DNA of 32,000 bases from Synechocystis sp. PCC 6803 substr. PCC-P (GCF_000284455.1 NC_017039.1:1830001-1862000), one strand, 5' to 3'; shown: positions 13,596 through 25,010, numbered from the stretch's first letter. Numbers and translations: made by a program. Notes: generated by a model not told the origin, from the letters alone.

Positions 13596-14294
13596 TCAGG
13601 AAATTAGATCTTCTAAATCCCTGAGATTGGCCACACTGATAAAATCCGGCTCTCGATGGATTAAGCCCCGTTTTTCCAGTTTAGTTAGGCAACGGGTGAC
13701 AGTTTCCCTGGCTAACCCACTAATACTACTCAATTCTCGGTGGGGCAAATTGGGAATAATTACCCCTTTGTCCGTATCTCGGCCCCGACCTTCCGCCAAA
13801 AATAGCAGGGTATCCGCCACCCGGGTTAAACTTTCTGCTTCCCTCAGCCGCAAACGACGGTTAAGTTGCCGCAGACGGCGAGCAATGATCTGGGCTAAAC
13901 GAATGCCCGCCATGGGCTCTGTTTGGAGAAAATTGTAAAATTCCGGAGCTGGTACACTGCACACTTCCGCCGGGGTAAGGGTGATGACGTCGGTGGAGCG
14001 GGGAGCCTCTTCGATCGCCGCCATTTCCCCGACAATCTCTCCCCGGCCGACAATGTTGAGGGTTACTTCCCGACCATCCACATTATGGGTGCGAATTTTG
14101 ACCCAGCCATCCATGACGAAATAAACTGAGCCGCCCCAGTCATGTTCGAGGAGAATAACTTGGTTGGCGGGATGACTGCGAACGGAAACATGGGCAATGG
14201 CCTCTTGCAATACTTCCAGCCTTAATCCCTCAAAAAAAGGTATTTCTTGGCTTAAACGCTCAGTAAACTCTGAATTTTGGGGACTAGTGCCCAT
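13596..14294 (-). CDS. sycrp1: CRP/FNR-family cAMP receptor protein
   Basis: 232 aa. The cNMP-binding domain has a canonical phosphate-binding cassette, GEMAAIEEAPRSTDV (G-E...R-S-T). The C-terminal HTH is RELSSISGLARETVTRCLTKLEKRGLI. Size and neighbourhood fit sll1371/SYCRP1. Confidence 0.9.
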   Translation of the reverse strand: MGTSPQNSEFTERLSQEIPFFEGLRLEVLQEAIAHVSVRSHPANQVILLEHDWGGSVYFVMDGWVKIRTHNVDGREVTLNIVGRGEIVGEMAAIEEAPRSTDVITLTPAEVCSVPAPEFYNFLQTEPMAGIRLAQIIARRLRQLNRRLRLREAESLTRVADTLLFLAEGRGRDTDKGVIIPNLPHRELSSISGLARETVTRCLTKLEKRGLIHREPDFISVANLRDLEDLIS

Positions 14295-15976: not shown

Positions 15977-17269
15977 TCAAGATTCAGACGGTGGGGGAGT
16001 TAGGTTACGGGCCGGATCGCCTAATAAAACCTTATCCATGGGGCCAGCATTTAAATTTTCCGGTAACACCTGCCAATGTTCGGCGATTTGTTGTAACAGT
16101 CGGTCCTGCTCGACTCGCAGACGATCAAAATTGGGGCCATTATTGATGATGGCAAACCAAACAGTGCCCCGCTCCTGGGTAGGAATAGTACCCGCTAGGG
16201 CACTGACCGTATTTAATGTGCCAGTTTTTATCGTTAATCCCTGGGGCATACTGCGCCATTCCAATGTTCCCCGGCGATCGCGCCCCATGACGGGAAAAAT
16301 ATCGTCAATGCCTAGGCCATGGGGTTCCAGTTGCGCCGCTAAAACTTGATACATTTTGGTCACGGCCCTGGGGGAAAGCCGATTGTCCACCCCTAGGCCG
16401 GAGCCATTTTTTAGTTGAATTTCCGCCGCTGGAATTGCCCCCAAGCGCGAGGTGGTTTGGGCCACGATCGCCGCTCCGCCTATGGCCTGGGCCAACATCT
16501 CGGCCATATCGTTATTGCTGTAGATGTTCATCTGTTTGAGCAAGGCCGCTAGGGGAAGGGATTGATGCTCTAGTAACGGTTCTAAGTTGGCGGGTAAAAC
16601 AGCCTGGGTCTGGACAGCGCCAGCAATTTTTACTTGGGGCCGGGGAGTATTGGGAGGTAAATCCCCGAAGGCTTGGCTCACTGTGGCCGACCATTGGCTT
16701 TCATCCACGGCTTGTTGAAATAAAGCTCCGGCAATGGCAGGGTTGGCCTCAAAGTTCATAGCAAAATTGCCCACCGCCACCAAATCTCCGGTTACTTCCC
16801 GAATGCCTGCTTGGTTCAGGGCATTGCCCACGGCGATCGCCTCTTCCCAGACAAAGAGGGGATCATGGTCCCCAGCGACGAATAAATTCCCCTCTAAAAC
16901 CCCGTTATGGATGGGGCCATCGGTGTAAAAACGGGTGATAAAACGATGGTTGGGTGCCCATTTATCCAACGCCGCCACACTGGTGGCAATTTTGGTCAAA
17001 GAAGCCGCTGGAAAAGCACTTTCTCCCTGGTTGTAGCCCAAATAGGCCCATTCTGACTGTAACCAAATGCCCTGGCGCTGGCGATCGTAGCCCAAGGATT
17101 CCAGGCGATCGAGGTAATTATCTACAATTTTGTCGATGGCCGGATCCGCTTGGGTGGGTACAGCAAAAACCTTCGCTTCCTGCCAGGCCACTTCCTGGCC
17201 AACTAAGGGTTCCCCCGCGCCCCCCCAACTGAGCAGGGCCAACACCGTCGCCCCAAAGATTCTCACCAT
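15977..17269 (-). CDS. dacB: D-alanyl-D-alanine carboxypeptidase/endopeptidase, PBP4 (peptidase S13) family
   Basis: 430 aa with a signal-peptide-like N-terminus. The three penicillin-binding motifs appear in order: SLTK (SxxK), YSNND (SxN) and KTGTL (KTG). Confidence 0.85.
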   Translation of the reverse strand: MVRIFGATVLALLSWGGAGEPLVGQEVAWQEAKVFAVPTQADPAIDKIVDNYLDRLESLGYDRQRQGIWLQSEWAYLGYNQGESAFPAASLTKIATSVAALDKWAPNHRFITRFYTDGPIHNGVLEGNLFVAGDHDPLFVWEEAIAVGNALNQAGIREVTGDLVAVGNFAMNFEANPAIAGALFQQAVDESQWSATVSQAFGDLPPNTPRPQVKIAGAVQTQAVLPANLEPLLEHQSLPLAALLKQMNIYSNNDMAEMLAQAIGGAAIVAQTTSRLGAIPAAEIQLKNGSGLGVDNRLSPRAVTKMYQVLAAQLEPHGLGIDDIFPVMGRDRRGTLEWRSMPQGLTIKTGTLNTVSALAGTIPTQERGTVWFAIINNGPNFDRLRVEQDRLLQQIAEHWQVLPENLNAGPMDKVLLGDPARNLTPPPSES

Positions 17270-17328
17270 AACTTAGCTTTTTCCTCCCACCAATTATCCA
17301 AGCGGCTTTGAAAAACCTTGGGTGGCCC

Positions 17329-17730
17329 CTAGGCTTTGACCAGAATGTTGTTGCCGCTCACCTGGGTAGCATAGGTAGGTAAATCCCTGATGGCGGGCCC
17401 CTTCAGCACCTTGCCGGTGGCCGCAAATTCCGCTCCGTGGCAGGGACAGACAAATTTACCATTGGCTTTTTTCCAATTCACCTGACAGCCGTTGTGGGTA
17501 CAAGTGGGATTAACCGCACTAATCTGGCCACTATTACCATTGGGTACTACCGTCACCGGCCCCTTGGGAGTGTTCCCCTTCAACTCTCCCTTGGCCTTGA
17601 GGTCCGCCATGGTACCAACATTTACCGTTTGTCCTTGGCCGTTACTACTATTACCACCAAAACAACCAGTGATGACAGCGATCGCCGTACTGAAAGCAGT
17701 GTAAGAAATTAGCTTGCGTCGTTTGACCAT
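17329..17730 (-). CDS. petC3: Small Rieske [2Fe-2S] protein with Tat-like lipoprotein signal (PetC3-type)
   Basis: 133 aa. Rieske boxes CTHNGC and CPCHGAEF are present. The N-terminus MVKRRKLISYTAFSTAIAVITGC carries a twin-Arg followed by a lipobox-like ITGC. Size and neighbourhood fit sll1182 (from memory). Confidence 0.85.
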   Translation of the reverse strand: MVKRRKLISYTAFSTAIAVITGCFGGNSSNGQGQTVNVGTMADLKAKGELKGNTPKGPVTVVPNGNSGQISAVNPTCTHNGCQVNWKKANGKFVCPCHGAEFAATGKVLKGPAIRDLPTYATQVSGNNILVKA

Positions 17731-17826
17731 GGTGGTAGATAAAAAGAACTGCCCCCAGTTTAGCCAAAGTTTCGATGCGGTGGCAGTTGGAAGCAGTCTG
17801 ATTTTGAGGCAATAAAAGCAAGAACA

Positions 17827-19578
17827 CTAACGAACAGTTTCTAAGCTCTCAATTTTCTTGGTAAACAGCTCTGTGAAGATGCTCATCACCGTGCGTTTTT
17901 CACGGACACGGATGTTAGCTGTGACGGACATGCCCGATTGGAGGGGAATCTCCCGCCCATGACTAACTAATTCCTGGCTATCTAGCTTGATCCTGACGGG
18001 GAATCGATAAAATTGATAGGTTTGATCGGGGGGCAGGGCATCGGAGCCGACGTATTCCACTTCCCCATCGACTCCACCAAACTCACTGTAGGGGAAGGAA
18101 TCAATCCGTACGTCAACGGGCATACCAGTGCGCACGAAACCGATATCTTTATTTGTCACATCCACCTCGGCTACTAAGCTATCGGCGGGAATAATTTTGA
18201 GCAGAGGTTCAGTTTGGTTGGGGGGGGTAACGTAACCAGGGGTGGCCTTGAGGTCAAATACAACCCCATCCACCGGGGAAGTGATTTCTTGATAACCAAG
18301 GTTTACCTTTGCCCGTTCAATCTGTCCGTTTAATTCGGTCAGCCGTTTGTCGTTATCAACGATGATTTTGGTGATCTGACTATCAATTTCTGCCAGCCGC
18401 TTATTGTTGTCTGCAAGGCGATCATAGATGTCCTTATCAGTTACGGCGCTGGTGTTGGCCAGGCGGGCTTGGGCTTGGGAAATTAAAGACTGAAGGCGTG
18501 ATTGCTCCGTTTCTAAGCGCTGGATTTCTGCTTGGCGGGACTCAATTTGTTGTTTTTGGCGGTCTACTTCCACCACCGTGTTAACTTTTTGCTCGATTAA
18601 CTGCTGAGTCCTGTCATTGAGGGATTGTTGCTGTTTTTCTACCTGTAACCGTGCCAGGGCTCCCTCCTCTAGCAAGGGGGTCATACTATTAACGATGCCT
18701 GCTTCAATCGCTAAGCTTTTCTCTGCCTCCACGAGGGCCGCTTCGTTGCGCCCCAATAGCCCAGCCAAGATTTTCTGGTCTTCCTGGAGCTGACTCCTTT
18801 CCGCCCTCAATTGTAGGCTGGCCTGCTGTAATTGTTTTTCAATTTGGCGAATCTCCAATTCAGCAGCGGTCACACGACTGCCTAATTCAAAGCGGGCCAT
18901 TTCCAGTCGGGAAAGTTGTTCGGCACTGAGTTGGCCTTCACCACTGGCGTTTCTTAACCCCAATTGCTGACGATAAAGTTTATTTTCATTAATCAATTCA
19001 GCCCGGTTATTGGCCAAAGCCACTACTTCCCAGGGTAAGTTGAGCTGGCTGATCGCCCTCTGTAGGGTACTGCCCTCCAAACCGTTTTGCAGTAGGGTGC
19101 GATAGAAAGCATTTTCCTGGAGAACCTTAGAGCGAATATTTTGGGCGGCGGTCAATTCTGCCCGGGTACTGCTGGAATCCATGATTACCAGCACTTCACC
19201 TTTTTTGACCTTGCGGTTGTTTTCGACTAAAACTTCCTTAACCACCCCATTGAGGGGAGCATTGATGTCCTTAACTGTATCGAGGGGTTTCAGTTGTCCG
19301 GTGGCGGGGACCACCTGTTCAATGGTAGCGATGGAAGCCCAGGTCACAGCCACCACAGTCACCCCCATAATCGCAATGGCAATACCCCGGGCCCACATGG
19401 GGGACTGACGCATGACAATGGCTTGTTCCGGTTGGAATAGGGATGAGTTGGATGAGAGAGCAACGGGAGTTTTGGCAGCCTTTTCCTGTTCTTTTACGTC
19501 GGCCAAGGTGCCCGCATCCATGGTTTTGGAGCTGTGGCCGTTCCTTTGGGGAGCATGTTCCTGGGTGGGGCTATTCAT
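17827..19578 (-). CDS. HlyD-family type I secretion membrane fusion protein
   Basis: The track ORF starts at a TTG (19599). The first ATG (19578) gives a 583-aa protein. It has one TM helix (WARGIAIAIMGVTVVAVTW), a long Gln/Glu/Leu-rich coiled coil, and a C-terminal beta-barrel region (GMPVDVRIDSFPY...GMSVTANI). Probably sll1181. Confidence 0.85.
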   Translation of the reverse strand: MNSPTQEHAPQRNGHSSKTMDAGTLADVKEQEKAAKTPVALSSNSSLFQPEQAIVMRQSPMWARGIAIAIMGVTVVAVTWASIATIEQVVPATGQLKPLDTVKDINAPLNGVVKEVLVENNRKVKKGEVLVIMDSSSTRAELTAAQNIRSKVLQENAFYRTLLQNGLEGSTLQRAISQLNLPWEVVALANNRAELINENKLYRQQLGLRNASGEGQLSAEQLSRLEMARFELGSRVTAAELEIRQIEKQLQQASLQLRAERSQLQEDQKILAGLLGRNEAALVEAEKSLAIEAGIVNSMTPLLEEGALARLQVEKQQQSLNDRTQQLIEQKVNTVVEVDRQKQQIESRQAEIQRLETEQSRLQSLISQAQARLANTSAVTDKDIYDRLADNNKRLAEIDSQITKIIVDNDKRLTELNGQIERAKVNLGYQEITSPVDGVVFDLKATPGYVTPPNQTEPLLKIIPADSLVAEVDVTNKDIGFVRTGMPVDVRIDSFPYSEFGGVDGEVEYVGSDALPPDQTYQFYRFPVRIKLDSQELVSHGREIPLQSGMSVTANIRVREKRTVMSIFTELFTKKIESLETVR

Positions 19579-19734
19579 AATTCTGGGGGCGATCGCCAAA
19601 GATGATGGACAAAGAGTTGATTGGGCGAGGAAATTATTTAGGCTAATGGTAATGGTATAGACAAAGTTTTAAAACCCATGGGGGCACACTGTCTGGCTAG
19701 TTGATAAAAATTCACACAGTTTTAGGTGAGGGCA

Positions 19735-22700
19735 CTAAACATCGTCACCGCCGGCGCCCTGTTGTTGGTAAAGGTAATAGTAACGTCCCTTGAGGGCCAT
19801 TAATTCGTCATGGCTACCCTGCTCAACAACGGAACCTTGGTCCATCATAACGATTACGTCGGCGCTCCGGACAGAGCTAAGGCGGTGGGTGATGAAGAAG
19901 ACGGTGTGATCCTTGAAGGCATCCCCAAGGTTGATACATACTTGTTGTTCGGTTATGTAATCCAGGGCGCTGGTGGCCTCGTCCAACACCAAAATGCGTG
20001 GCCGCTGTAACACCGATCTGGCAATCGCAATTCGTTGCCGTTGTCCCCCGGAGAGAGTAGCTCCCCGTTCCCCTACCCTGGTGTTGTAACCGTTGGGCAA
20101 GGTCATAATGAATTCGTGGGCAGAGGCAACTTTAGCCGCCGAGATAATTTGTTCCGTGGTCGCGTCTGGGTTAGTCAGGGCAATATTTTCTTGCACTGTG
20201 CCTTCAAACAGGAGGGTTTCCTGGGGGACTACCCCCACCTGACGACGGAGGGAATAGAGTTCCACTTTGCCAATATCAAGGCCATCGACCAAAATCCGCC
20301 CCCCTTCGGGTTCATACAGTCGGGAAAGCAGTTTGGTCAGGGTACTTTTACCAGCACCACTCTGCCCAACCAAAGCCACAAAGGTGCCCGGGGGGAAGGA
20401 CAGGTTAATGTTGTTCAACTGTAATGGCCCCTGTTTTTTAAACCGGAAACTGACGTTTTCAAACTTCACTTCGCCGGCAATTTCGGGCATGGGAATGTTT
20501 TGGCGATCGCGCTCCGATTCCTGGGGCGTATCAACAATGTCCGCCAACCGTTCCAGGGACAGGGCGGTTTCCTGGAAGTTCTGCCAGAGTTGGGTCAAAC
20601 GCAGAATAGGGGAGGTAACGTAGCCGGCAATGATCCGAAAAGCGATTAACTGACCCAGGGTTAAATCCCCATCCAACACCAGGGATGCCCCCACCCAAAG
20701 TACGAGTAAACCGGATAACTGGTTGAGAAAATGACTGGAGGAGCTAGCTAGGGTAGAGGTAATGACAGTGTTGAAACCGGCCCCCACATAACGGGAATAT
20801 TTGTCCTGCCATTGCCAGCGGGAGCGCAACTCGATGTTTTGGGCTTTAACGGTCTGAATCCCTGACATTACCTCCACTAGATAGGACTGGGTTTGGGCGT
20901 TTCTTTCCGCTTTGAGCCGTAACTGCCTACGAATAAGGGGGGAAAATACCAGAGTCAAAATAACAAAAATGGGCACAATTCCCAGGGCCACCGCCGTCAG
21001 CAGAGGGCTGTAGATAATCATCACGACGATGTAGACCACAGAAAAAACGGAGTCCAACACCACCGTCAGGGCCGTACCTGTTAAAAATTGCCGAATATTT
21101 TCCAGTTCGTTAACCCTGGTGGAAATTTCCCCCACTGGGCGGTTCTCAAAATAGCGCAGGGGTAACCGCAGTAGGTGGTCGATGATCTCCGACCCCAAAC
21201 TCATGTCGATGCGATTGGTGGTATCTACAAATAAGTAGGTTCGTAGGGTGCTTAAGAGGGCCTCAAAAATGGCGATCGACACCAACGCAATACCCAGCAC
21301 CTGCAGGGTATCTTTGCTGTTTTGCACAATCACCTTGTCGATGATGATTTGGATCATCAAGGGATTGGCCAGACCAAATAGTTGGACAAAGAAGGATGCC
21401 ACAAAGACCAGCAGGAGAATGTAGCGGTACTTCACCAACGCTGGCCAAAACCAACTCAAGCCGAACCGTTGCTGGGGCGTATCTTTGGAAGGGTACATCA
21501 TCAGCACTTCCCCTTGCCCCTCTTCTCCCCAGGTTTCAAGAAACTCACTGGTGTCGCGTTTGACTAGACCCAATTCCGGTACGGCAATTTTTACTTCCCG
21601 ATCGCCAGCTTCGTAGACCAGGGCAAGGCTATCTTGCCAGCGGATGAGAAAAGGGACCTGCATTTGCCCAAAAACTCCCTTGGGGATGCGGACCAACTGA
21701 CTGGTCAAACCCATCAACTCCACAATGGCACCGCAAATGGGCAAAGAAAGGGCTTCACTGCGCTTAATTTCTTCGGTGACAATCCTTTGGATGATGTCCC
21801 GACGGAAAGGCATACCGAAATATTGACTAATCATCTGGAAGCAGGCTACCCCGGCATCGGTGGGATTTTGCCCCCGCACAACGGGATAACTTTTGCGCCC
21901 AGATTTGACCACGGTGGGCTCTGGTAGCGGCTCTCCCAATTGGTTGGGGTCAGCATAGGGAATATCATCCCAGGGGGAATCTTCTGGAGCGAGGCGGGTC
22001 ACCGTGGCCAGGGGCACTTCTCCATGGCCGTTACCATTGCCATTGGTTTTCGATCCAGAACTTCCCGGGAAAAACCGGGGTAAAGGAGGTAGCCCAATCA
22101 AACGGACAAGGGTTTGGGCCTTGAGCACCAAGGCAGAGTCTGGATCAGGCAAAGCGCTACCCCGGGGACATTGCTCCAATTCACCACTACTCACCAACCA
22201 AAGTCTTTCGGGATCGGGCAAATCACTGGGCAAACTGTGGCTACCGGGTTGCAACTCGTAAACCTGACTCTGGGGCAACATTTCCAGGGTTAGCTGGCGC
22301 AAATCCACATTGCCTTGGGCGGTGCGTTGTAGCTGTTCCCCTAATAAATCGAATAGTTCCACCCGACCGCATTGGTGGCGATAAACCCTGGCTAGTTCAG
22401 GATACTTATCTACCAAAGCTAAAAACTCGTCCCTAGTGAGGCTGGCGCAAATAGTTTCCGTAGAGGCGATCGCCGTTTCACAGGGGACATTTCTGATGGC
22501 GTTGTTATCCCCAATCACTGCCCCATTCTGGAGCAAAGCCATGGTGGCGGGGTAACCAGTGCCGGGGTCGTAACCGAGTAGTCTTGCTTGCCCACTGACT
22601 AAGAAATAAACATTATTGGCCAACTTTCCCCGGGCAAGAATTATCTGTCCCATGCGAAACCTTAGCGGCCTCAGTTTTGCCGCTATCTCGGCGATCGCCG

Positions 22701-22770
22701 GGGCAGGAAGTTGAGCAAAGGGTTCAATTTCCCGCAAGAAGGATTGATAATCGGCAATGGTCAGACTCAT
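19735..22770 (-). CDS. HlyB-type type I secretion ABC exporter with an N-terminal cNMP-binding-like domain and a C39-like domain
   Basis: 1011 aa. Residues about 1-140 look like a CAP-family beta-roll (RMGQIILARGKLANNVYFLVSGQARLLG...). An NGNGNGHG linker follows. The C39-like segment is NPTDAGVACFQMISQYFG. Next come 6 TM helices. The NBD has Walker A GQSGAGKST, signature LSGGQRQRIAIAR, Walker B ILVLDEATSALD and H-loop ITHRL. Probably sll1180. Confidence 0.9.
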   Translation of the reverse strand: MSLTIADYQSFLREIEPFAQLPAPAIAEIAAKLRPLRFRMGQIILARGKLANNVYFLVSGQARLLGYDPGTGYPATMALLQNGAVIGDNNAIRNVPCETAIASTETICASLTRDEFLALVDKYPELARVYRHQCGRVELFDLLGEQLQRTAQGNVDLRQLTLEMLPQSQVYELQPGSHSLPSDLPDPERLWLVSSGELEQCPRGSALPDPDSALVLKAQTLVRLIGLPPLPRFFPGSSGSKTNGNGNGHGEVPLATVTRLAPEDSPWDDIPYADPNQLGEPLPEPTVVKSGRKSYPVVRGQNPTDAGVACFQMISQYFGMPFRRDIIQRIVTEEIKRSEALSLPICGAIVELMGLTSQLVRIPKGVFGQMQVPFLIRWQDSLALVYEAGDREVKIAVPELGLVKRDTSEFLETWGEEGQGEVLMMYPSKDTPQQRFGLSWFWPALVKYRYILLLVFVASFFVQLFGLANPLMIQIIIDKVIVQNSKDTLQVLGIALVSIAIFEALLSTLRTYLFVDTTNRIDMSLGSEIIDHLLRLPLRYFENRPVGEISTRVNELENIRQFLTGTALTVVLDSVFSVVYIVVMIIYSPLLTAVALGIVPIFVILTLVFSPLIRRQLRLKAERNAQTQSYLVEVMSGIQTVKAQNIELRSRWQWQDKYSRYVGAGFNTVITSTLASSSSHFLNQLSGLLVLWVGASLVLDGDLTLGQLIAFRIIAGYVTSPILRLTQLWQNFQETALSLERLADIVDTPQESERDRQNIPMPEIAGEVKFENVSFRFKKQGPLQLNNINLSFPPGTFVALVGQSGAGKSTLTKLLSRLYEPEGGRILVDGLDIGKVELYSLRRQVGVVPQETLLFEGTVQENIALTNPDATTEQIISAAKVASAHEFIMTLPNGYNTRVGERGATLSGGQRQRIAIARSVLQRPRILVLDEATSALDYITEQQVCINLGDAFKDHTVFFITHRLSSVRSADVIVMMDQGSVVEQGSHDELMALKGRYYYLYQQQGAGGDDV

Positions 22771-23090
22771 AGCAACAGATAATTTAAAGACGGGAAAATT
22801 GATTTGGCAAATAGCTGCGCGACAACTAGCGACGGCTTTGGATATGTTGAAACATCTTCACCTTTCAACCAAGGTTTTAGACTACCGAAAAGCCAGGCAG
22901 TACCCCTAAGGGTCTCCACTTCCCCCCAGACATTACAACAGATCGGACTTTTTTCACCAGACCTAGTTCCAGATTCTCCTCCAAACAAGTTTGGCAAAAC
23001 ACCTGTTGTCCCACCGAAAAACTATTCCAAGTATAAGAAATTAGACCCATTGATTGACCCGGTTTCCCATCCAGGGGCCGATAAATATCG

Positions 23091-23096
23091 TACAAT
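23091..23096 (+). promoter_or_regulatory. Putative -10 box (TACAAT) for rpoC1
   Basis: TACAAT ends 33 nt upstream of the rpoC1 ATG. There is no good -35 at 17-bp spacing. The call is weak. Confidence 0.25.
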
Positions 23097-23129
23097 GAAG
23101 GGTCTGAAATTTTTTGTTCCTTGCCCAGC

Positions 23130-25010
23130 ATGAAAGCCCAATCAGAACCTCGGTTTGATTACGTCAAAATTGCGATCGCCTCCCCCGAAAGGATCCGCCA
23201 GTGGGGAGAACGCACCCTACCGAACGGCACCGTAGTGGGGGAAGTGACCAAACCCGAAACCATTAACTACCGGACGTTAAAGCCGGAAATGGACGGTCTG
23301 TTCTGTGAAAAAATCTTTGGTCCTTCCAAGGATTGGGAATGCTGGTGTGGCAAATATAAACGGGTACGGCACCGGGGCATTGTTTGTGAGCGCTGTGGCG
23401 TGGAAGTAACGGAATCTAGGGTTCGTCGTCACCGCATGGGCTACATCAAATTAGCCGCCCCCGTCACCCACGTTTGGTATCTCAAAGGCATCCCTAGCTA
23501 TCTCAGCATTCTTTTGGACATGGCCCTGCGGGATGTGGAGCAGATCGTTTACTTCAACGCCTACGTGGTGCTCAACCCCGGCAATGCCAGCAATCTGCAA
23601 TATAAGCAACTCCTGACTGAAGACCAGTGGGTAGAAATTGAAGACCAAATTTATGCTGAAGATTCTGAGCTAGAAGGTATCGAAGTGGGCATTGGTGCGG
23701 AAGCGGTGCAAAGGCTCTTAGCAGAATTGCAACTGGAAGAAGTGGCGGAAAAGCTCCGGGAAGAAATTCTGGCTAGTAAAGGACAAAAGCGGGCCAAGCT
23801 GATTAAACGTCTGCGGGTAATTGATAATTTCATCGCTACCCACTCCCAAGCGGAATGGATGACCTTGGATGTGATCCCTGTTATTCCGCCAGATTTACGT
23901 CCCATGGTGCAGTTGGATGGGGGGCGCTTTGCCACCTCTGACCTGAATGATCTCTATCGTCGGGTAATCAACCGTAATAACCGTCTGGCCCGTCTGCAGG
24001 AAATCCTCGCCCCGGAAATCATTGTCCGCAACGAAAAGCGGATGCTCCAGGAAGCAGTGGATGCCCTGATCGATAATGGTCGCCGGGGTCGCACCGTCGT
24101 GGGTGCCAATAACCGGGCGTTGAAATCCCTTTCCGACATCATTGAAGGTAAGCAGGGTCGTTTCCGTCAAAACCTCTTGGGTAAACGGGTGGACTACTCC
24201 GGTCGTTCCGTTATTGTGGTGGGCCCCAACCTCAAAATTTACCAATGCGGTCTGCCCCGGGAAATGGCGATCGAGCTATTCCAGCCCTTTGTGATTCACC
24301 GTCTGATCAAACTAGGCATTGTTAACAACATCAAAGCGGCCAAGAAATTGATTCTCAAGGGCGATCCGCAAATTTGGAGCGTATTGGAGGAAGTGATCAC
24401 TGGACACCCCGTTATGCTCAACCGGGCACCCACTCTGCACCGTTTGGGTATCCAAGCCTTTGAGCCAATTTTGGTGGAAGGGCGAGCCATCCAACTCCAT
24501 CCCCTGGTGTGTCCTGCTTTTAACGCTGACTTCGACGGGGACCAAATGGCTGTACACGTCCCCCTTTCCCTAGAGGCCCAATGTGAAGCCCGGCTGTTGA
24601 TGCTGGCTTGCCATAACGTTCTTTCCCCCGCTACAGGTAAACCCATTGTGGCTCCCTCCCAGGACATGGTATTGGGCTGTTATTACCTCACCGCAGAAAA
24701 TCCCAATGCCCAAAAGGGAGCAGGACGTTACTTTGCCGGGATCGAAGATGCCTTGCGGGCCTATGACCACGGCCAAGTGGATCTCCACTCCCAAATTTGG
24801 ATTCGCCATCTGGATGAAGATGTGGTGACGGAAAAACCAGACACAGAGGTCATCAAAACCGAGGATTTGGGGGATGGCACGGTGATGAAATATTACCGGG
24901 AACGGAAAATCCGTGAAGGAGTTGATGGGGAGATTATTACTCAGTACATTCAGACGACTCCGGGGCGGATCATTTACAACAAAACGATCGCCGAAGCGTT
25001 GGTGTTCTAA
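23130..25010 (+). CDS. rpoC1: DNA-directed RNA polymerase gamma subunit (N-terminal half of beta-prime)
   Basis: The track ORF starts at a TTG (23121). The ATG at 23130 gives 626 aa, [28 protein letters not shown].... It has the Zn-finger [23 protein letters not shown] and the catalytic NADFDGD motif. It ends after about 626 aa, as is typical of the cyanobacterial split beta-prime. Confidence 0.97.

What the first reader, a model, noticed from the sequence alone, without database searches (positions are those of the whole stretch)
19735..22770. Type I secretion ABC exporter with a degenerate cNMP-binding-like sensor domain and a catalytically dead C39-like domain
The 1011-aa HlyB-type exporter is about 300 residues longer than classical HlyB.

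- By-eye alignment to CAP/PKA places a CAP-family beta-roll at residues about 1-140. Where the phosphate-binding cassette normally reads G-E-x...R-[ST]-A (the sycrp1 gene in this same window has GEM...RST), this domain reads IGDNNAIRNVPCETAIA. The Arg that clamps the cyclic phosphate therefore appears to be Glu.
- The following C39-like segment reads DAGVACFQMISQYFG. Active bacteriocin-processing C39 domains read D-C-G and HlyB reads D-Y-G. The downstream His/Asp positions (DSLALVYE...VP) are also not conserved. That makes it a non-proteolytic CLD of the RTX/HlyB type.

I recall that Sll1180/Sll1181 were reported as the exporter of the RTX S-layer protein Sll1951. I do not know of any description of what the extra N-terminal sensor-like module binds or does. 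A ligand-gated T1SS would be a new regulatory principle.
Basis: partly seen in the sequence, partly recalled or inferred. Interest (0 to 1): 0.7.

Follow-up and report, generated by a model that had tools for sequence, protein, structure and literature searches.

The report
Cyanobacterial secretion pump with rewired sensor domain
This is the known Synechocystis S-layer secretion pump Sll1180; its extra N-terminal "cyclic-nucleotide sensor" cannot bind cAMP/cGMP in the usual way, yet its altered pocket is strictly conserved across cyanobacteria, so it is probably a repurposed regulatory module, not a decayed one.

Summary
ORF 19735-22770(-) is Sll1180 of Synechocystis PCC 6803 (1011 aa, 304 aa longer than E. 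coli HlyB). Pfam finds cNMP_binding, Peptidase_C39, ABC_membrane and ABC_tran above threshold, and NCBIfam files it as HlyB-type T1SS. HlyD (Sll1181) lies downstream.

The PBC lacks both cNMP-clamping residues: the Arg position is Cys97, followed by Glu98, and the G-E Glu is Asp (Trp in most relatives). The C39-like domain lacks Cys, His and Asp.

"Degenerate" is wrong. R93...P-C97-E98-T-A-x-A-S103 is the most conserved segment of the domain in 47 orthologue clusters. At least 556 species genomes, nearly all cyanobacterial, encode the family.

New points:
- A second, vestigial CNB-like domain (157-227).
- Near-complete coupling of the C-E PBC with a dead C39, versus an Arg PBC with an active C39 in HetC-type paralogues.
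- A conserved upstream parvulin gene in other genera.

Novelty is overstated. CAP_ED-C39-ABC "long-type" transporters were described in 2011, and HetC's cNMP domain was shown in 2024 to be essential and to bind ppGpp, not cAMP.

Verdict: a known gene and a new variant of a known architecture. The ligand is unknown. Moderate interest.

The parts
19735..22770 (-). sll1180: 1011-aa HlyB-type T1SS ABC transporter (tandem CNB module, linker, C39-like domain, TMD, NBD)
   Evidence: ORF. Identical to BAA18265.1. Pfam domains. TIGR01846 scores 745.3 bits, above the 725.55 cut-off.
22321..22728 (-). CNB-A domain (residues ~15-150): a complete cyclic-nucleotide-binding fold
   Evidence: Pfam cNMP_binding at 37-123, E 5.7e-11. 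PDB phmmer hits to SthK, PKG and PKA-R CNBDs. AF2 pLDDT is about 90 here. Foldseek matches CNB proteins at E about 1e-10. hhalign to HetC-type CNB-A gives probability 99.5%, E 2.8e-22.
22456..22512 (-). Rewired phosphate-binding cassette and beta7 (residues 87-105): G87-D-N-N-A-I-R93-N-V-P96-C97-E98-T99-A100-I-A102-S103-T-E105. The canonical Glu and Arg are absent.
   Evidence: Alignments. Conservation: E98, G87 and S103 100%, R93 98%, C97 91%. Position 88 is Trp in 28 of 47 clusters and Glu in 2 of 47.
22090..22302 (-). Vestigial second CNB-like domain (residues ~157-227): one helix plus five strands, no PBC helix; W191 and R223 are invariant
   Evidence: AF2 models (pLDDT 90.1 when modelled alone). 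In Foldseek against the PDB, nearly all of the top 50 hits are CNB/CNBHD domains, with TMq about 0.5-0.6 and E of 8e-3 to 0.1. There is no Pfam hit and no significant hhalign match, so this assignment rests on structure only. HetC-type paralogues have an intact CNB-B at this position.
21886..22089 (-). Disordered Pro/Gly/Glu-rich linker (residues 228-295) with a semi-conserved IPYA motif at residues 270-274
   Evidence: pLDDT is below 50 for residues 234-259 and 280-289. IPYA conservation: I 72%, P 80%, Y 59%, A 91%.
21481..21885 (-). C39-like domain (CLD, residues 296-430) without the catalytic triad: Ala306 for Cys, a gap for His, Val397 for Asp
   Evidence: Pfam Peptidase_C39 at 295-415. 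Alignment to PCAT1. No family member in the alignments has the catalytic Cys. The TIGR01846 profile matches from residue 307.
20608..21417 (-). Transmembrane domain (ABC_membrane, residues 452-721)
   Evidence: Aligned with HlyB (7SGR/8DCK).
19969..20418 (-). Nucleotide-binding domain (ABC_tran, residues 785-934) with intact Walker A (GQSGAGKS), signature (LSGGQ), Walker B (ILVLDE) and H-loop (FITHR)
17827..19599 (-). sll1181: HlyD-family membrane fusion protein, 135 nt downstream on the same strand
   Evidence: Pfam HlyD_3 and HlyD_D23; TIGR01843 hit. A homologue lies immediately downstream in 45 of 70 related loci.

Best explanation
SHOWN. sll1180 encodes the inner-membrane ABC engine of a HlyB/HlyD-type type I secretion system. 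Its core (TMD plus NBD, all ATPase motifs intact) is HlyB-like, and its HlyD partner is co-oriented directly downstream.

In front of the core sits a C39-like domain that has lost the Cys/His/Asp triad. By analogy with the HlyB CLD, it would tether the unfolded RTX substrate and not cleave it. Published work, cited second-hand, identifies the substrate as the S-layer protein Sll1951.

The roughly 300 extra N-terminal residues are:
- a complete CNB-fold domain (CNB-A);
- a stripped-down second CNB-like domain;
- a ~65-residue disordered linker.

The CNB-A pocket cannot hold a cyclic phosphate in the canonical way, because the Arg position is Cys97, followed by Glu98, and the ribose-binding Glu is lost. 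The rewritten cassette R93...P-C97-E98-T-A-x-A-S103 is nevertheless the most conserved segment of the domain in a family found in at least 556 species genomes, nearly all cyanobacterial.

INFERRED. The tandem CNB module is a cytoplasmic allosteric regulator of the exporter. It has been retuned from nucleotide sensing to another cue. Candidates are an uncharged or cationic small molecule, a metal, or the thiol/redox state of Cys97. Its conformational state would be passed through the flexible linker to the CLD and NBDs to permit or block substrate engagement and ATP turnover.

The family is sister to the HetC / 'long-type' bacteriocin exporters, which keep tandem canonical CNB domains and an active C39 protease.
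For: - Identity and architecture.
- Loss of the cNMP contacts. Position 88 is Trp in 28 of 47 clusters.
- Purifying selection on the rewritten PBC: E98, G87 and S103 100%, R93 98%, C97 91%; entropy 1.07 against 1.92 bits, Mann-Whitney p = 1.3e-4, in clusters selected by E-value only.
- Breadth: at least 556 species genomes, nearly all cyanobacterial; 298 representative clusters at E <= 1e-10.
- Class coupling: 94 sequences with a C-E PBC and a Cys-less CLD, 11 with an Arg PBC and D-C-G, and none mixed by motif.
- Homology to HetC-type CNB-A: probability 99.5%.
- Functional precedent: deleting HetC's cNMP domain abolishes function; the HetC N-terminal domain does not respond to cAMP, 2-OG or c-di-GMP and binds ppGpp with Kd about 59 uM (PMC10986499).
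- Precedent for PBC rewiring with a new ligand: cAMP-independent trypanosome PKA-R solved with guanosine or inosine appears among the Foldseek neighbours (6hyq, 6hyi).
- Confident two-domain N-terminal model followed by a disordered tether.
- Sll1180/Sll1181/Slr1270 export of the S-layer protein: Agarwal et al. 2018, as cited in PMC11594277.
Against: - No ligand is known and none can be inferred from sequence.
- Conservation of the PBC region would equally fit a protein-protein or interdomain interface.
- I could not inspect model coordinates or PAE, so I do not know whether the pocket is open or filled by W191, R223 or the IPYA linker motif.
- The HetC ppGpp result was obtained with a construct containing cNMP plus C39 domains, its Kd is weak, and HetC has a canonical Arg PBC, so it transfers only loosely.
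- The class coupling has at least one apparent exception (P0164).
- The assignment of domain 2 as CNB-like rests on individually weak Foldseek E-values (>= 8e-3) and has no sequence support.
- The primary Sll1180 paper could not be read.
Confidence: 0.5

Rival explanations
1. Ligand-independent pseudo-receptor or scaffold. The CNB module binds no small molecule. Like the CNB-homology domains of KCNH channels (from my own knowledge), its pocket would be permanently filled by an intrinsic element, such as W191/R223 of the vestigial CNB-B or the IPYA linker motif. It would then serve as a docking platform for the substrate, the NBDs, HlyD or the co-encoded parvulin-like chaperone.
For: - An invariant acidic E98 at the phosphate site with invariant R93, W191 and R223 nearby in sequence could form a self-satisfied salt-bridge and stacking network.
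- CNB-B is reduced to a small beta-domain with no PBC.
- There is a semi-conserved IPYA motif in an otherwise disordered linker, with locally raised pLDDT.
- A parvulin gene is co-oriented and often overlapping upstream in 55 of 71 loci.
- CNBHD structures (zELK, SKOR) are among the fold neighbours.
Against: - There is no direct evidence that the pocket is occupied.
- The paralogue HetC does bind a nucleotide.
- A near-invariant Cys next to an invariant Glu is more typical of a reactive or ligand site than of a simple interface.
- Synechocystis lacks the adjacent parvulin gene but keeps the module.
Confidence: 0.3
2. A (p)ppGpp/GTP sensor like HetC. The module couples secretion of S-layer and RTX proteins to the stringent response.
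For: The HetC N-terminal domain binds ppGpp (Kd ~59 uM), GTP and GDP, and its cNMP domain is essential. Sll1180 CNB-A is clearly homologous to HetC-type CNB-A.
Against: HetC-type proteins keep G-E...P-R-S-A, twice, whereas Sll1180-type proteins replace the Arg with Cys-Glu and the Glu with Trp/Asp, and have lost the second PBC altogether. An invariant carboxylate at the phosphate site is unfavourable for a polyphosphate ligand. The HetC binding site was never mapped to the PBC.
Confidence: 0.1
3. A canonical cAMP/cGMP-gated exporter, functionally linked to the nearby sycrp1 gene.
For: The Pfam cNMP_binding hit is above threshold. A Crp-family gene with a canonical PBC lies 5.4 kb away.
Against: Both canonical cNMP contacts are missing across the whole family. 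Even HetC, with an intact PBC, did not respond to cAMp-type ligands: no response to cAMP. No Crp homologue lies near the gene in any of 80 related loci.
Confidence: 0.03
4. An evolutionary relic: a decaying, functionless remnant of an ancestral tandem-CNB PCAT.
For: CNB-B is clearly reduced, the C39 triad is lost, and the linker is disordered and variable in length.
Against: The module is retained at full length, with invariant residues, across clusters only 25-46% identical over the N-terminal 440 residues. The PBC segment is the most conserved part. The module is kept in at least 556 species genomes.
Confidence: 0.05

Closest known systems
E. coli HlyB (haemolysin T1SS ABC transporter; PDB 7SGR/8DCK)
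   Same: The TMD plus NBD core is 46.6% identical (571 bits) and is the best PDB match. TIGR01846 membership is met. There is a non-catalytic C39-like domain in front of the TMD, a HlyD partner is adjacent, and an RTX-type substrate is reported in the literature.
   Different: HlyB is 707 aa and starts with the CLD. Sll1180 has about 295 additional residues (CNB-A, vestigial CNB-B, linker). Its CLD aligns pairwise with the PCAT1 C39 domain but not with the HlyB CLD (the alignment starts after the CLD). Whether the triad was lost once or independently is unresolved.
HetC of Nostoc PCC 7120 and 'long-type' CAP_ED-C39-ABC bacteriocin exporters of cyanobacteria (PMC10986499; PMC3140520)
   Same: Same domain order: CNB module, C39-type domain, TMD, NBD. 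The CNB-A domains are homologous (probability 99.5%). Both are cyanobacterial. A regulatory role for the cNMP domain has been demonstrated (it is essential) and ligand binding has been proposed.
   Different: HetC-type proteins have two intact CNB domains with canonical G-E...P-R-S-A and an active Cys/His/Asp C39. Sll1180-type proteins have a C-E PBC, a vestigial CNB-B and a dead C39. The cores are only 34-45% identical. HetC has no adjacent membrane fusion protein according to the paper, whereas Sll1180 has HlyD.
PCAT1 (Clostridium thermocellum peptidase-containing ABC transporter; PDB 4RY2 and others)
   Same: It is the best pairwise PDB match for the C39-like domain (E 4.8e-5), and it aligns over the full C39-TMD-NBD length.
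   Different: PCAT1 has the catalytic triad Cys21/His99/Asp115, no CNB module and no MFP/OMP partners.
CNB domains with rewired pockets: cAMP-independent trypanosome PKA-R (PDB 6HYQ, 6HYI, bound to guanosine or inosine) and KCNH-channel CNBHDs
   Same: They have a CNB fold in which the PBC has lost canonical cAMP recognition but the domain keeps a regulatory role. They are fold neighbours.
   Different: They are unrelated proteins in unrelated contexts with different substitutions. No C-E cassette has been reported for them, to my knowledge.

Membership tests
HlyB-type T1SS ABC transporter (NCBIfam TIGR01846) | Full-length profile score above the curated cut-off | tested here: met
   745.3 bits against a cut-off of 725.55, covering residues 307-1004 and model positions 1-692 of 694.
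HlyB-type T1SS ABC transporter (NCBIfam TIGR01846) | Half-transporter TMD plus NBD with intact ATPase motifs | tested here: met
   ABC_membrane and ABC_tran hits. Walker A, signature, Walker B and H-loop are present. The core is 46.6% identical to E. coli HlyB.
HlyB-type T1SS ABC transporter (NCBIfam TIGR01846) | N-terminal C39-like domain without the catalytic Cys (CLD) | tested here: met
   Ala306 is at the Cys position, and His and Asp are also absent.
HlyB-type T1SS ABC transporter (NCBIfam TIGR01846) | Adjacent HlyD-family membrane fusion protein | tested here: met
   ORF 17827-19599(-) has HlyD_3 and TIGR01843 hits. This arrangement is conserved in 45 of 70 loci.
HlyB-type T1SS ABC transporter (NCBIfam TIGR01846) | TolC-like outer-membrane partner and a C-terminal-signal (RTX) substrate | not testable with these tools
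   Neither is in the window. The literature names Slr1270 and Sll1951 (PMC11594277, citing Agarwal 2018). The primary paper is not held.
Cyclic nucleotide-binding domain (Pfam PF00027), fold | HMM hit above the gathering score and a beta-roll plus helices fold | tested here: met
   42.7 bits against GA 27.5. AF2 model and Foldseek hits to PKA/PKG/SthK-type CNBDs.
Cyclic nucleotide-binding domain, function (cAMP/cGMP receptor) | PBC Glu (ribose 2'-OH) and Arg (cyclic phosphate) | tested here: not met
   Asp88 replaces the Glu (Trp in most relatives), and Cys97-Glu98 stand at the Arg/Ser positions.
Cyclic nucleotide-binding domain, function (cAMP/cGMP receptor) | Measured cNMP binding | not testable with these tools
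   This needs ITC or nanoDSF on the purified domain.
Peptidase C39 / PCAT (active bacteriocin-processing exporter) | Peptidase_C39 HMM hit | tested here: met
   32.5 bits against GA 22, residues 295-415.
Peptidase C39 / PCAT (active bacteriocin-processing exporter) | Catalytic Cys/His/Asp triad | tested here: not met
   Ala306, a gap and Val397 against PCAT1 Cys21, His99 and Asp115. The catalytic Cys is absent in every family member in the alignments.
HetC / long-type CAP_ED-C39-ABC exporters | Domain order: CNB module, C39-type domain, ABC_membrane, ABC_tran | tested here: met
   The architecture is described in PMC3140520 and PMC10986499.
HetC / long-type CAP_ED-C39-ABC exporters | Canonical Arg-containing PBC(s) and an active C39 protease | tested here: not met
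   HetC-type representatives have GE..PRSA and DCG/H/DP; Sll1180-type proteins do not.
HetC / long-type CAP_ED-C39-ABC exporters | ppGpp/GTP binding by the N-terminal domain | not testable with these tools
   A biochemical assay is required.

The most novel reading that the evidence does not exclude
The cyanobacteria-wide R93...P-C97-E98-T-A cassette is a new sensory site built on the CNB fold. It would read a non-nucleotide cue, such as thiol or redox state, a metal, or an uncharged or cationic metabolite, and would allosterically gate a bona fide HlyB/HlyD type I secretion system. Deployment of S-layer and RTX proteins would then be controlled post-translationally from the cytoplasm. This switch would have co-evolved with the conversion of the C39 protease into a substrate-tethering CLD.
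Probability: 0.25. Interest if true: 0.7.

Novelty: new variant of a known kind. Interest (0 to 1): 0.42.

Why it matters
Type I secretion is usually regarded as substrate-driven, with no allosteric control from the cytoplasm. This family attaches a conserved sensor-fold module to a true HlyB-type engine in at least 556 species genomes, nearly all cyanobacterial. One of them is a genetically tractable model organism with a known, easily scored substrate, the S-layer protein Sll1951.

If the rewritten pocket senses a signal, it would be a clean system for studying post-translational gating of a T1SS, and a further example of the CNB fold being retuned to a new ligand. It could also be used to control protein secretion in cyanobacterial biotechnology.

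The coupling of PBC type with protease activity across paralogues gives a natural experiment on how the sensor and cargo-handling domains co-evolve.

If the module is only a scaffold, the finding is of modest, mainly structural interest.

Tried and rejected
1. Sequence evidence that domain 2 (residues 151-232) is a CNB repeat. hhalign gave probability 16-28% (P ~3-6e-4) against the family's own CNB-A, and 0.4-2% against HetC-type CNB-A and CNB-B. Pfam finds nothing there even at E <= 1. I therefore rely only on the structure-based assignment and label it tentative.
2. A functional link to the nearby sycrp1-like gene. No Crp homologue lies near the ABC gene in any of 80 loci, so I treat the proximity as coincidental.
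3. Promoter and terminator scan of 17200-23200. Counts were at or below the shuffle expectation, so it is uninformative.
4. A conserved disulfide partner for Cys97. From the sequences, Cys134 is present in only about 40% of members, so an obligatory C97-C134 disulfide is rejected. C108 is only a majority residue.
5. Reading the primary Sll1180/Sll1181 paper (PMID 29678468). It is not held, so the substrate assignment is second-hand.
6. Literature searches for an earlier description of the Sll1180 cNMP domain or of CNB-CLD T1SS exporters. Only the HetC paper and the 2011 genome-mining paper were relevant.
7. Using the 80 genome loci to estimate motif frequency. I rejected this because those loci were retrieved with the motif itself. 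I used the HMMER-only set instead.
8. Whether PCC 6803 encodes the parvulin partner elsewhere. It is not resolved: PCC 6803 is not among the 120 best hits listed.
9. Whether the core is closer to HlyB or to HetC-type paralogues. Pairwise scores are roughly equidistant (542 bits against 298-481). No rooted phylogeny was made, so whether the triad was lost independently stays open.


Full report
**1. What is at the coordinates.**
The minus-strand ORF 19735..22770 encodes 1011 aa. It is identical to BAA18265.1, 'HlyB family', of Synechocystis sp. PCC 6803, which is Sll1180.

Pfam finds four domains, all above their gathering scores:
- cNMP_binding, residues 37-123, E 5.7e-11
- Peptidase_C39, residues 295-415
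- ABC_membrane, residues 452-721
- ABC_tran, residues 785-934

NCBIfam places the protein in TIGR01846 (type_I_sec_HlyB) at 745.3 bits, above the 725.55 cut-off. The bacteriocin/PCAT models fall well below theirs. E. coli HlyB (7SGR/8DCK, 707 aa) is by far the closest solved transporter: 571 bits against 397 for PCAT1, and 46.6% identity over the core. Walker A, signature, Walker B and H-loop are intact.

The next gene on the same strand, 17827..19599, is a HlyD-family adaptor (Sll1181). Flanking genes are unrelated housekeeping functions: a Rieske protein, an S13 carboxypeptidase, an NTP-transferase, divergent rpoC1 and a carbamoyltransferase.

**2. The residue-level observations hold.**
Against the SthK CNBD, 'GDNNAIRNVPCETA' pairs with 'GEMALILRAPR-TA'. 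Profile-profile alignment with HetC-type CNB-A and CNB-B puts Cys97 on the PBC Arg, with Glu98 at or next to the following Ser. The ribose-binding Glu of 'G-E' is Asp88 here, and in relatives it is mostly Trp (28 of 47 clusters; Glu in only 2). So both canonical cNMP contacts are gone.

In the C39-like domain, PCAT1 Cys21 aligns to Ala306, His99 falls in a gap after A383, and Asp115 aligns to Val397. The window's Crp-family gene does carry a canonical GEMAAIEEAPRST.

**3. The pocket is rewritten, not degenerate.**
A word-indexed search returned 73 relatives, all cyanobacterial where named. In nearly all of them the cassette reads R-G-[VI]-[PA]-C-E-T-A-I-A-S-T.

To avoid ascertainment bias, I used the exhaustive HMMER search of 1.84 billion cluster representatives. 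It gave 1841 hits at E <= 1e-3, 298 at E <= 1e-10 and 52 at E <= 1e-30. I selected orthologues by E-value alone. In the 47 clusters that cover the domain:
- G87, E98 and S103 are 100% conserved, R93 98%, C97 91%;
- the 87-105 segment has mean entropy 1.07 bits against 1.92 bits for the rest of the domain (Mann-Whitney p = 1.3e-4).

These clusters are only about 25-46% identical to Sll1180 over the N-terminal 440 residues. This is therefore strong purifying selection on a derived site.

Almost all are cyanobacteria spanning unicellular, pleurocapsalean, filamentous and heterocystous lineages.

**4. Anatomy of the extra 300 residues.**
AlphaFold2, run with the 54-sequence family alignment, gives a confident model (mean pLDDT 85.9):

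| Residues | Element |
|---|---|
| ~1-150 | CNB-fold domain |
| 157-227 | Second compact unit: one helix plus five strands |
| 234-259 and 280-289 (within linker 228-295) | Disordered linker |
| 296-430 | C39-like domain |

Foldseek's best PDB matches to the whole model are tandem-CNB proteins (PKG, PKA-R, Bcy1) aligned over about 240-260 columns. Residues 133-235 modelled alone reach pLDDT 90.1. Nearly all of their top 50 fold neighbours are CNB/CNBHD domains, with TMq about 0.5-0.6, although each E-value is weak, from 8e-3 to 0.1. Sequence methods do not detect this domain.

HetC-type paralogues have a full second CNB domain at this position. I therefore read domain 2 as a vestigial CNB-B that has lost its PBC. 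This is an inference with moderate support. W191 and R223 in it are invariant. The linker carries a semi-conserved IPYA motif.

**5. Two paralogous classes with coupled states.**
Aligning the full-length representatives separates two classes:
- Sll1180-type: C-E PBC, with a CLD that lacks Cys, His and Asp.
- HetC-type: G-E...P-R-S-A, often twice, with D-C-G, H-W-x-G-x-H and A-D-P.

A motif count gives 94 sequences with C-E and CLD, 11 with Arg and D-C-G, and no mixed cases. The alignment does show one apparent exception, P0164, which has a C-E PBC with a plausible triad.

P0185 (1044 aa; C350, H423, Walker-B E972) matches the published HetC landmarks C347, H420 and E970 closely. Both classes occur in Nostoc-type cyanobacteria (PMC10986499), so they are paralogues and not lineage variants.

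**6. Genomic context.**
Across the 80 fetched loci, the only gene shared with the Synechocystis window is HlyD, which lies directly downstream in 45 of 70 loci with enough sequence. In Pleurocapsales it is elsewhere.

Unexpectedly, a ~250-aa PpiC/parvulin-type PPIase gene lies directly upstream on the same strand in 55 of 71 loci, often 15 nt away or overlapping by 4 nt. It is absent from the Synechocystis window. That parvulin family is widespread and highly conserved. No Crp homologue is syntenic.

**7. What is already known.**
- Sll1180, Sll1181 and Slr1270 are described as the T1SS for the S-layer protein Sll1951 (Agarwal et al. 2018, cited in PMC11594277). The primary paper was not available.
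- Wang et al. 2011 described 'long-type' cyanobacterial C39 ABC transporters with an extra N-terminal CAP_ED domain (PMC3140520).
- For Nostoc HetC, deleting the cNMP domain abolishes function. The N-terminal domain is not stabilised by cAMP, 2-OG or c-di-GMP, but it binds GTP, GDP and ppGpp (Kd ~59 uM), and regulation of export by ppGpp was proposed (PMC10986499).
- I found no description of the Sll1180-type C-E cassette, of its coupling to CLD status, of the vestigial CNB-B or of the parvulin synteny.

**8. Mechanism.**
Shown: this is a HlyB-type T1SS engine with a non-proteolytic C39-like domain and an N-terminal CNB module whose canonical cNMP site has been replaced by a conserved C-E cassette.

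Inferred, with about 50% confidence: the module is an allosteric regulator retuned to a non-cNMP cue, and it is tethered to the CLD and NBDs by a flexible linker. An invariant carboxylate at the phosphate position argues against an anionic phosphate ligand. It fits better with an uncharged or cationic ligand, a metal, or a thiol-based switch at Cys97. Trypanosome PKA-R, whose CNB domains bind nucleosides instead of cAMP, shows that such retuning happens (PDB titles).

The main rival, at about 30%, is a ligand-independent, self-occupied pseudo-receptor that serves as a docking scaffold. Canonical cNMP gating (~3%) and a functionless relic (~5%) are disfavoured by the data above. HetC-like ppGpp sensing (~10%) is a specific sub-case, weakened by the different PBC chemistry.

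**9. Verdict.**
It is a known gene and a new variant of a known architecture. It comes with several apparently undescribed family-level features that make a concrete, testable case in a model organism.

Noticed in passing
L002 7501-8328; L004 9105-9896 (and 53 other loci); absent from the window: A ~250-aa PpiC/parvulin-type PPIase gene (Pfam Rotamase) lies immediately upstream of the Sll1180-type ABC gene on the same strand in 55 of 71 loci, often 15 nt away or overlapping by 4 nt. This suggests a parvulin-ABC-HlyD operon in most cyanobacteria. Synechocystis PCC 6803 has divergent rpoC1 there instead.
   Followed up: partly
window 21949-21963 (residues 270-274): A semi-conserved 'IPYA[PD]' motif (A273 in 91% of sequences) sits inside the otherwise disordered, length-variable linker between the CNB module and the C39-like domain, and pLDDT rises locally to about 70-77. 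It could be a docking motif or an intrinsic ligand.
   Followed up: partly
protein P0164 (metagenomic, 765 aa): This is an apparent exception to the class coupling. It has a C-E-type PBC (PCEWVIAS) but Cys, His and Asp are present at the C39 catalytic positions (DDIDCTLAAC ... H ... ADP). It may be an evolutionary intermediate.
   Followed up: no
cluster of the window protein; WLT37244.1 (Synechocystis sp. B12, 246 aa): In one Synechocystis strain, a 246-aa 'cyclic nucleotide-binding domain-containing protein' belongs to the same 90%-identity cluster as Sll1180. The gene appears split or truncated just after the CNB module in that genome. P0011 and P0080, on one 585-kb contig, look like a similar split.
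   Followed up: no
window 13596-14294 (-): This Crp-family regulator (cNMP_binding plus HTH_Crp_2) has a canonical PBC, GEMAAIEEAPRST. Its proximity to sll1180 (5.4 kb) is not conserved in any of the 80 related loci.
   Followed up: yes
L023 (labelled Candidatus Gracilibacteria) and L068 (labelled Candidatus Sericytochromatia): Two MAGs with non-cyanobacterial or basal labels carry typical members of this otherwise cyanobacterial family. A parvulin hit is also labelled Gracilibacteria. The Gracilibacteria case is probably a mis-binned cyanobacterial contig.
   Followed up: no
L017 7153-7557 (-), L024 8051-8455 (-) and 15 other loci: In 17 loci (examples seen in Xenococcaceae and Pleurocapsales MAGs), a conserved ~134-aa Gly-rich protein with a hydrophobic, signal-like N-terminus and no Pfam hit lies divergently about 1.5 kb upstream. 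ispF (YgbB) lies between it and the parvulin gene in 24 loci.
   Followed up: no
window 17329-17730 (-): A small Rieske [2Fe-2S] protein with a lipoprotein-like N-terminus lies 96 nt downstream of hlyD on the same strand. Homologues are present in only 2 of 80 related loci, so it is probably not part of the secretion system.
   Followed up: partly
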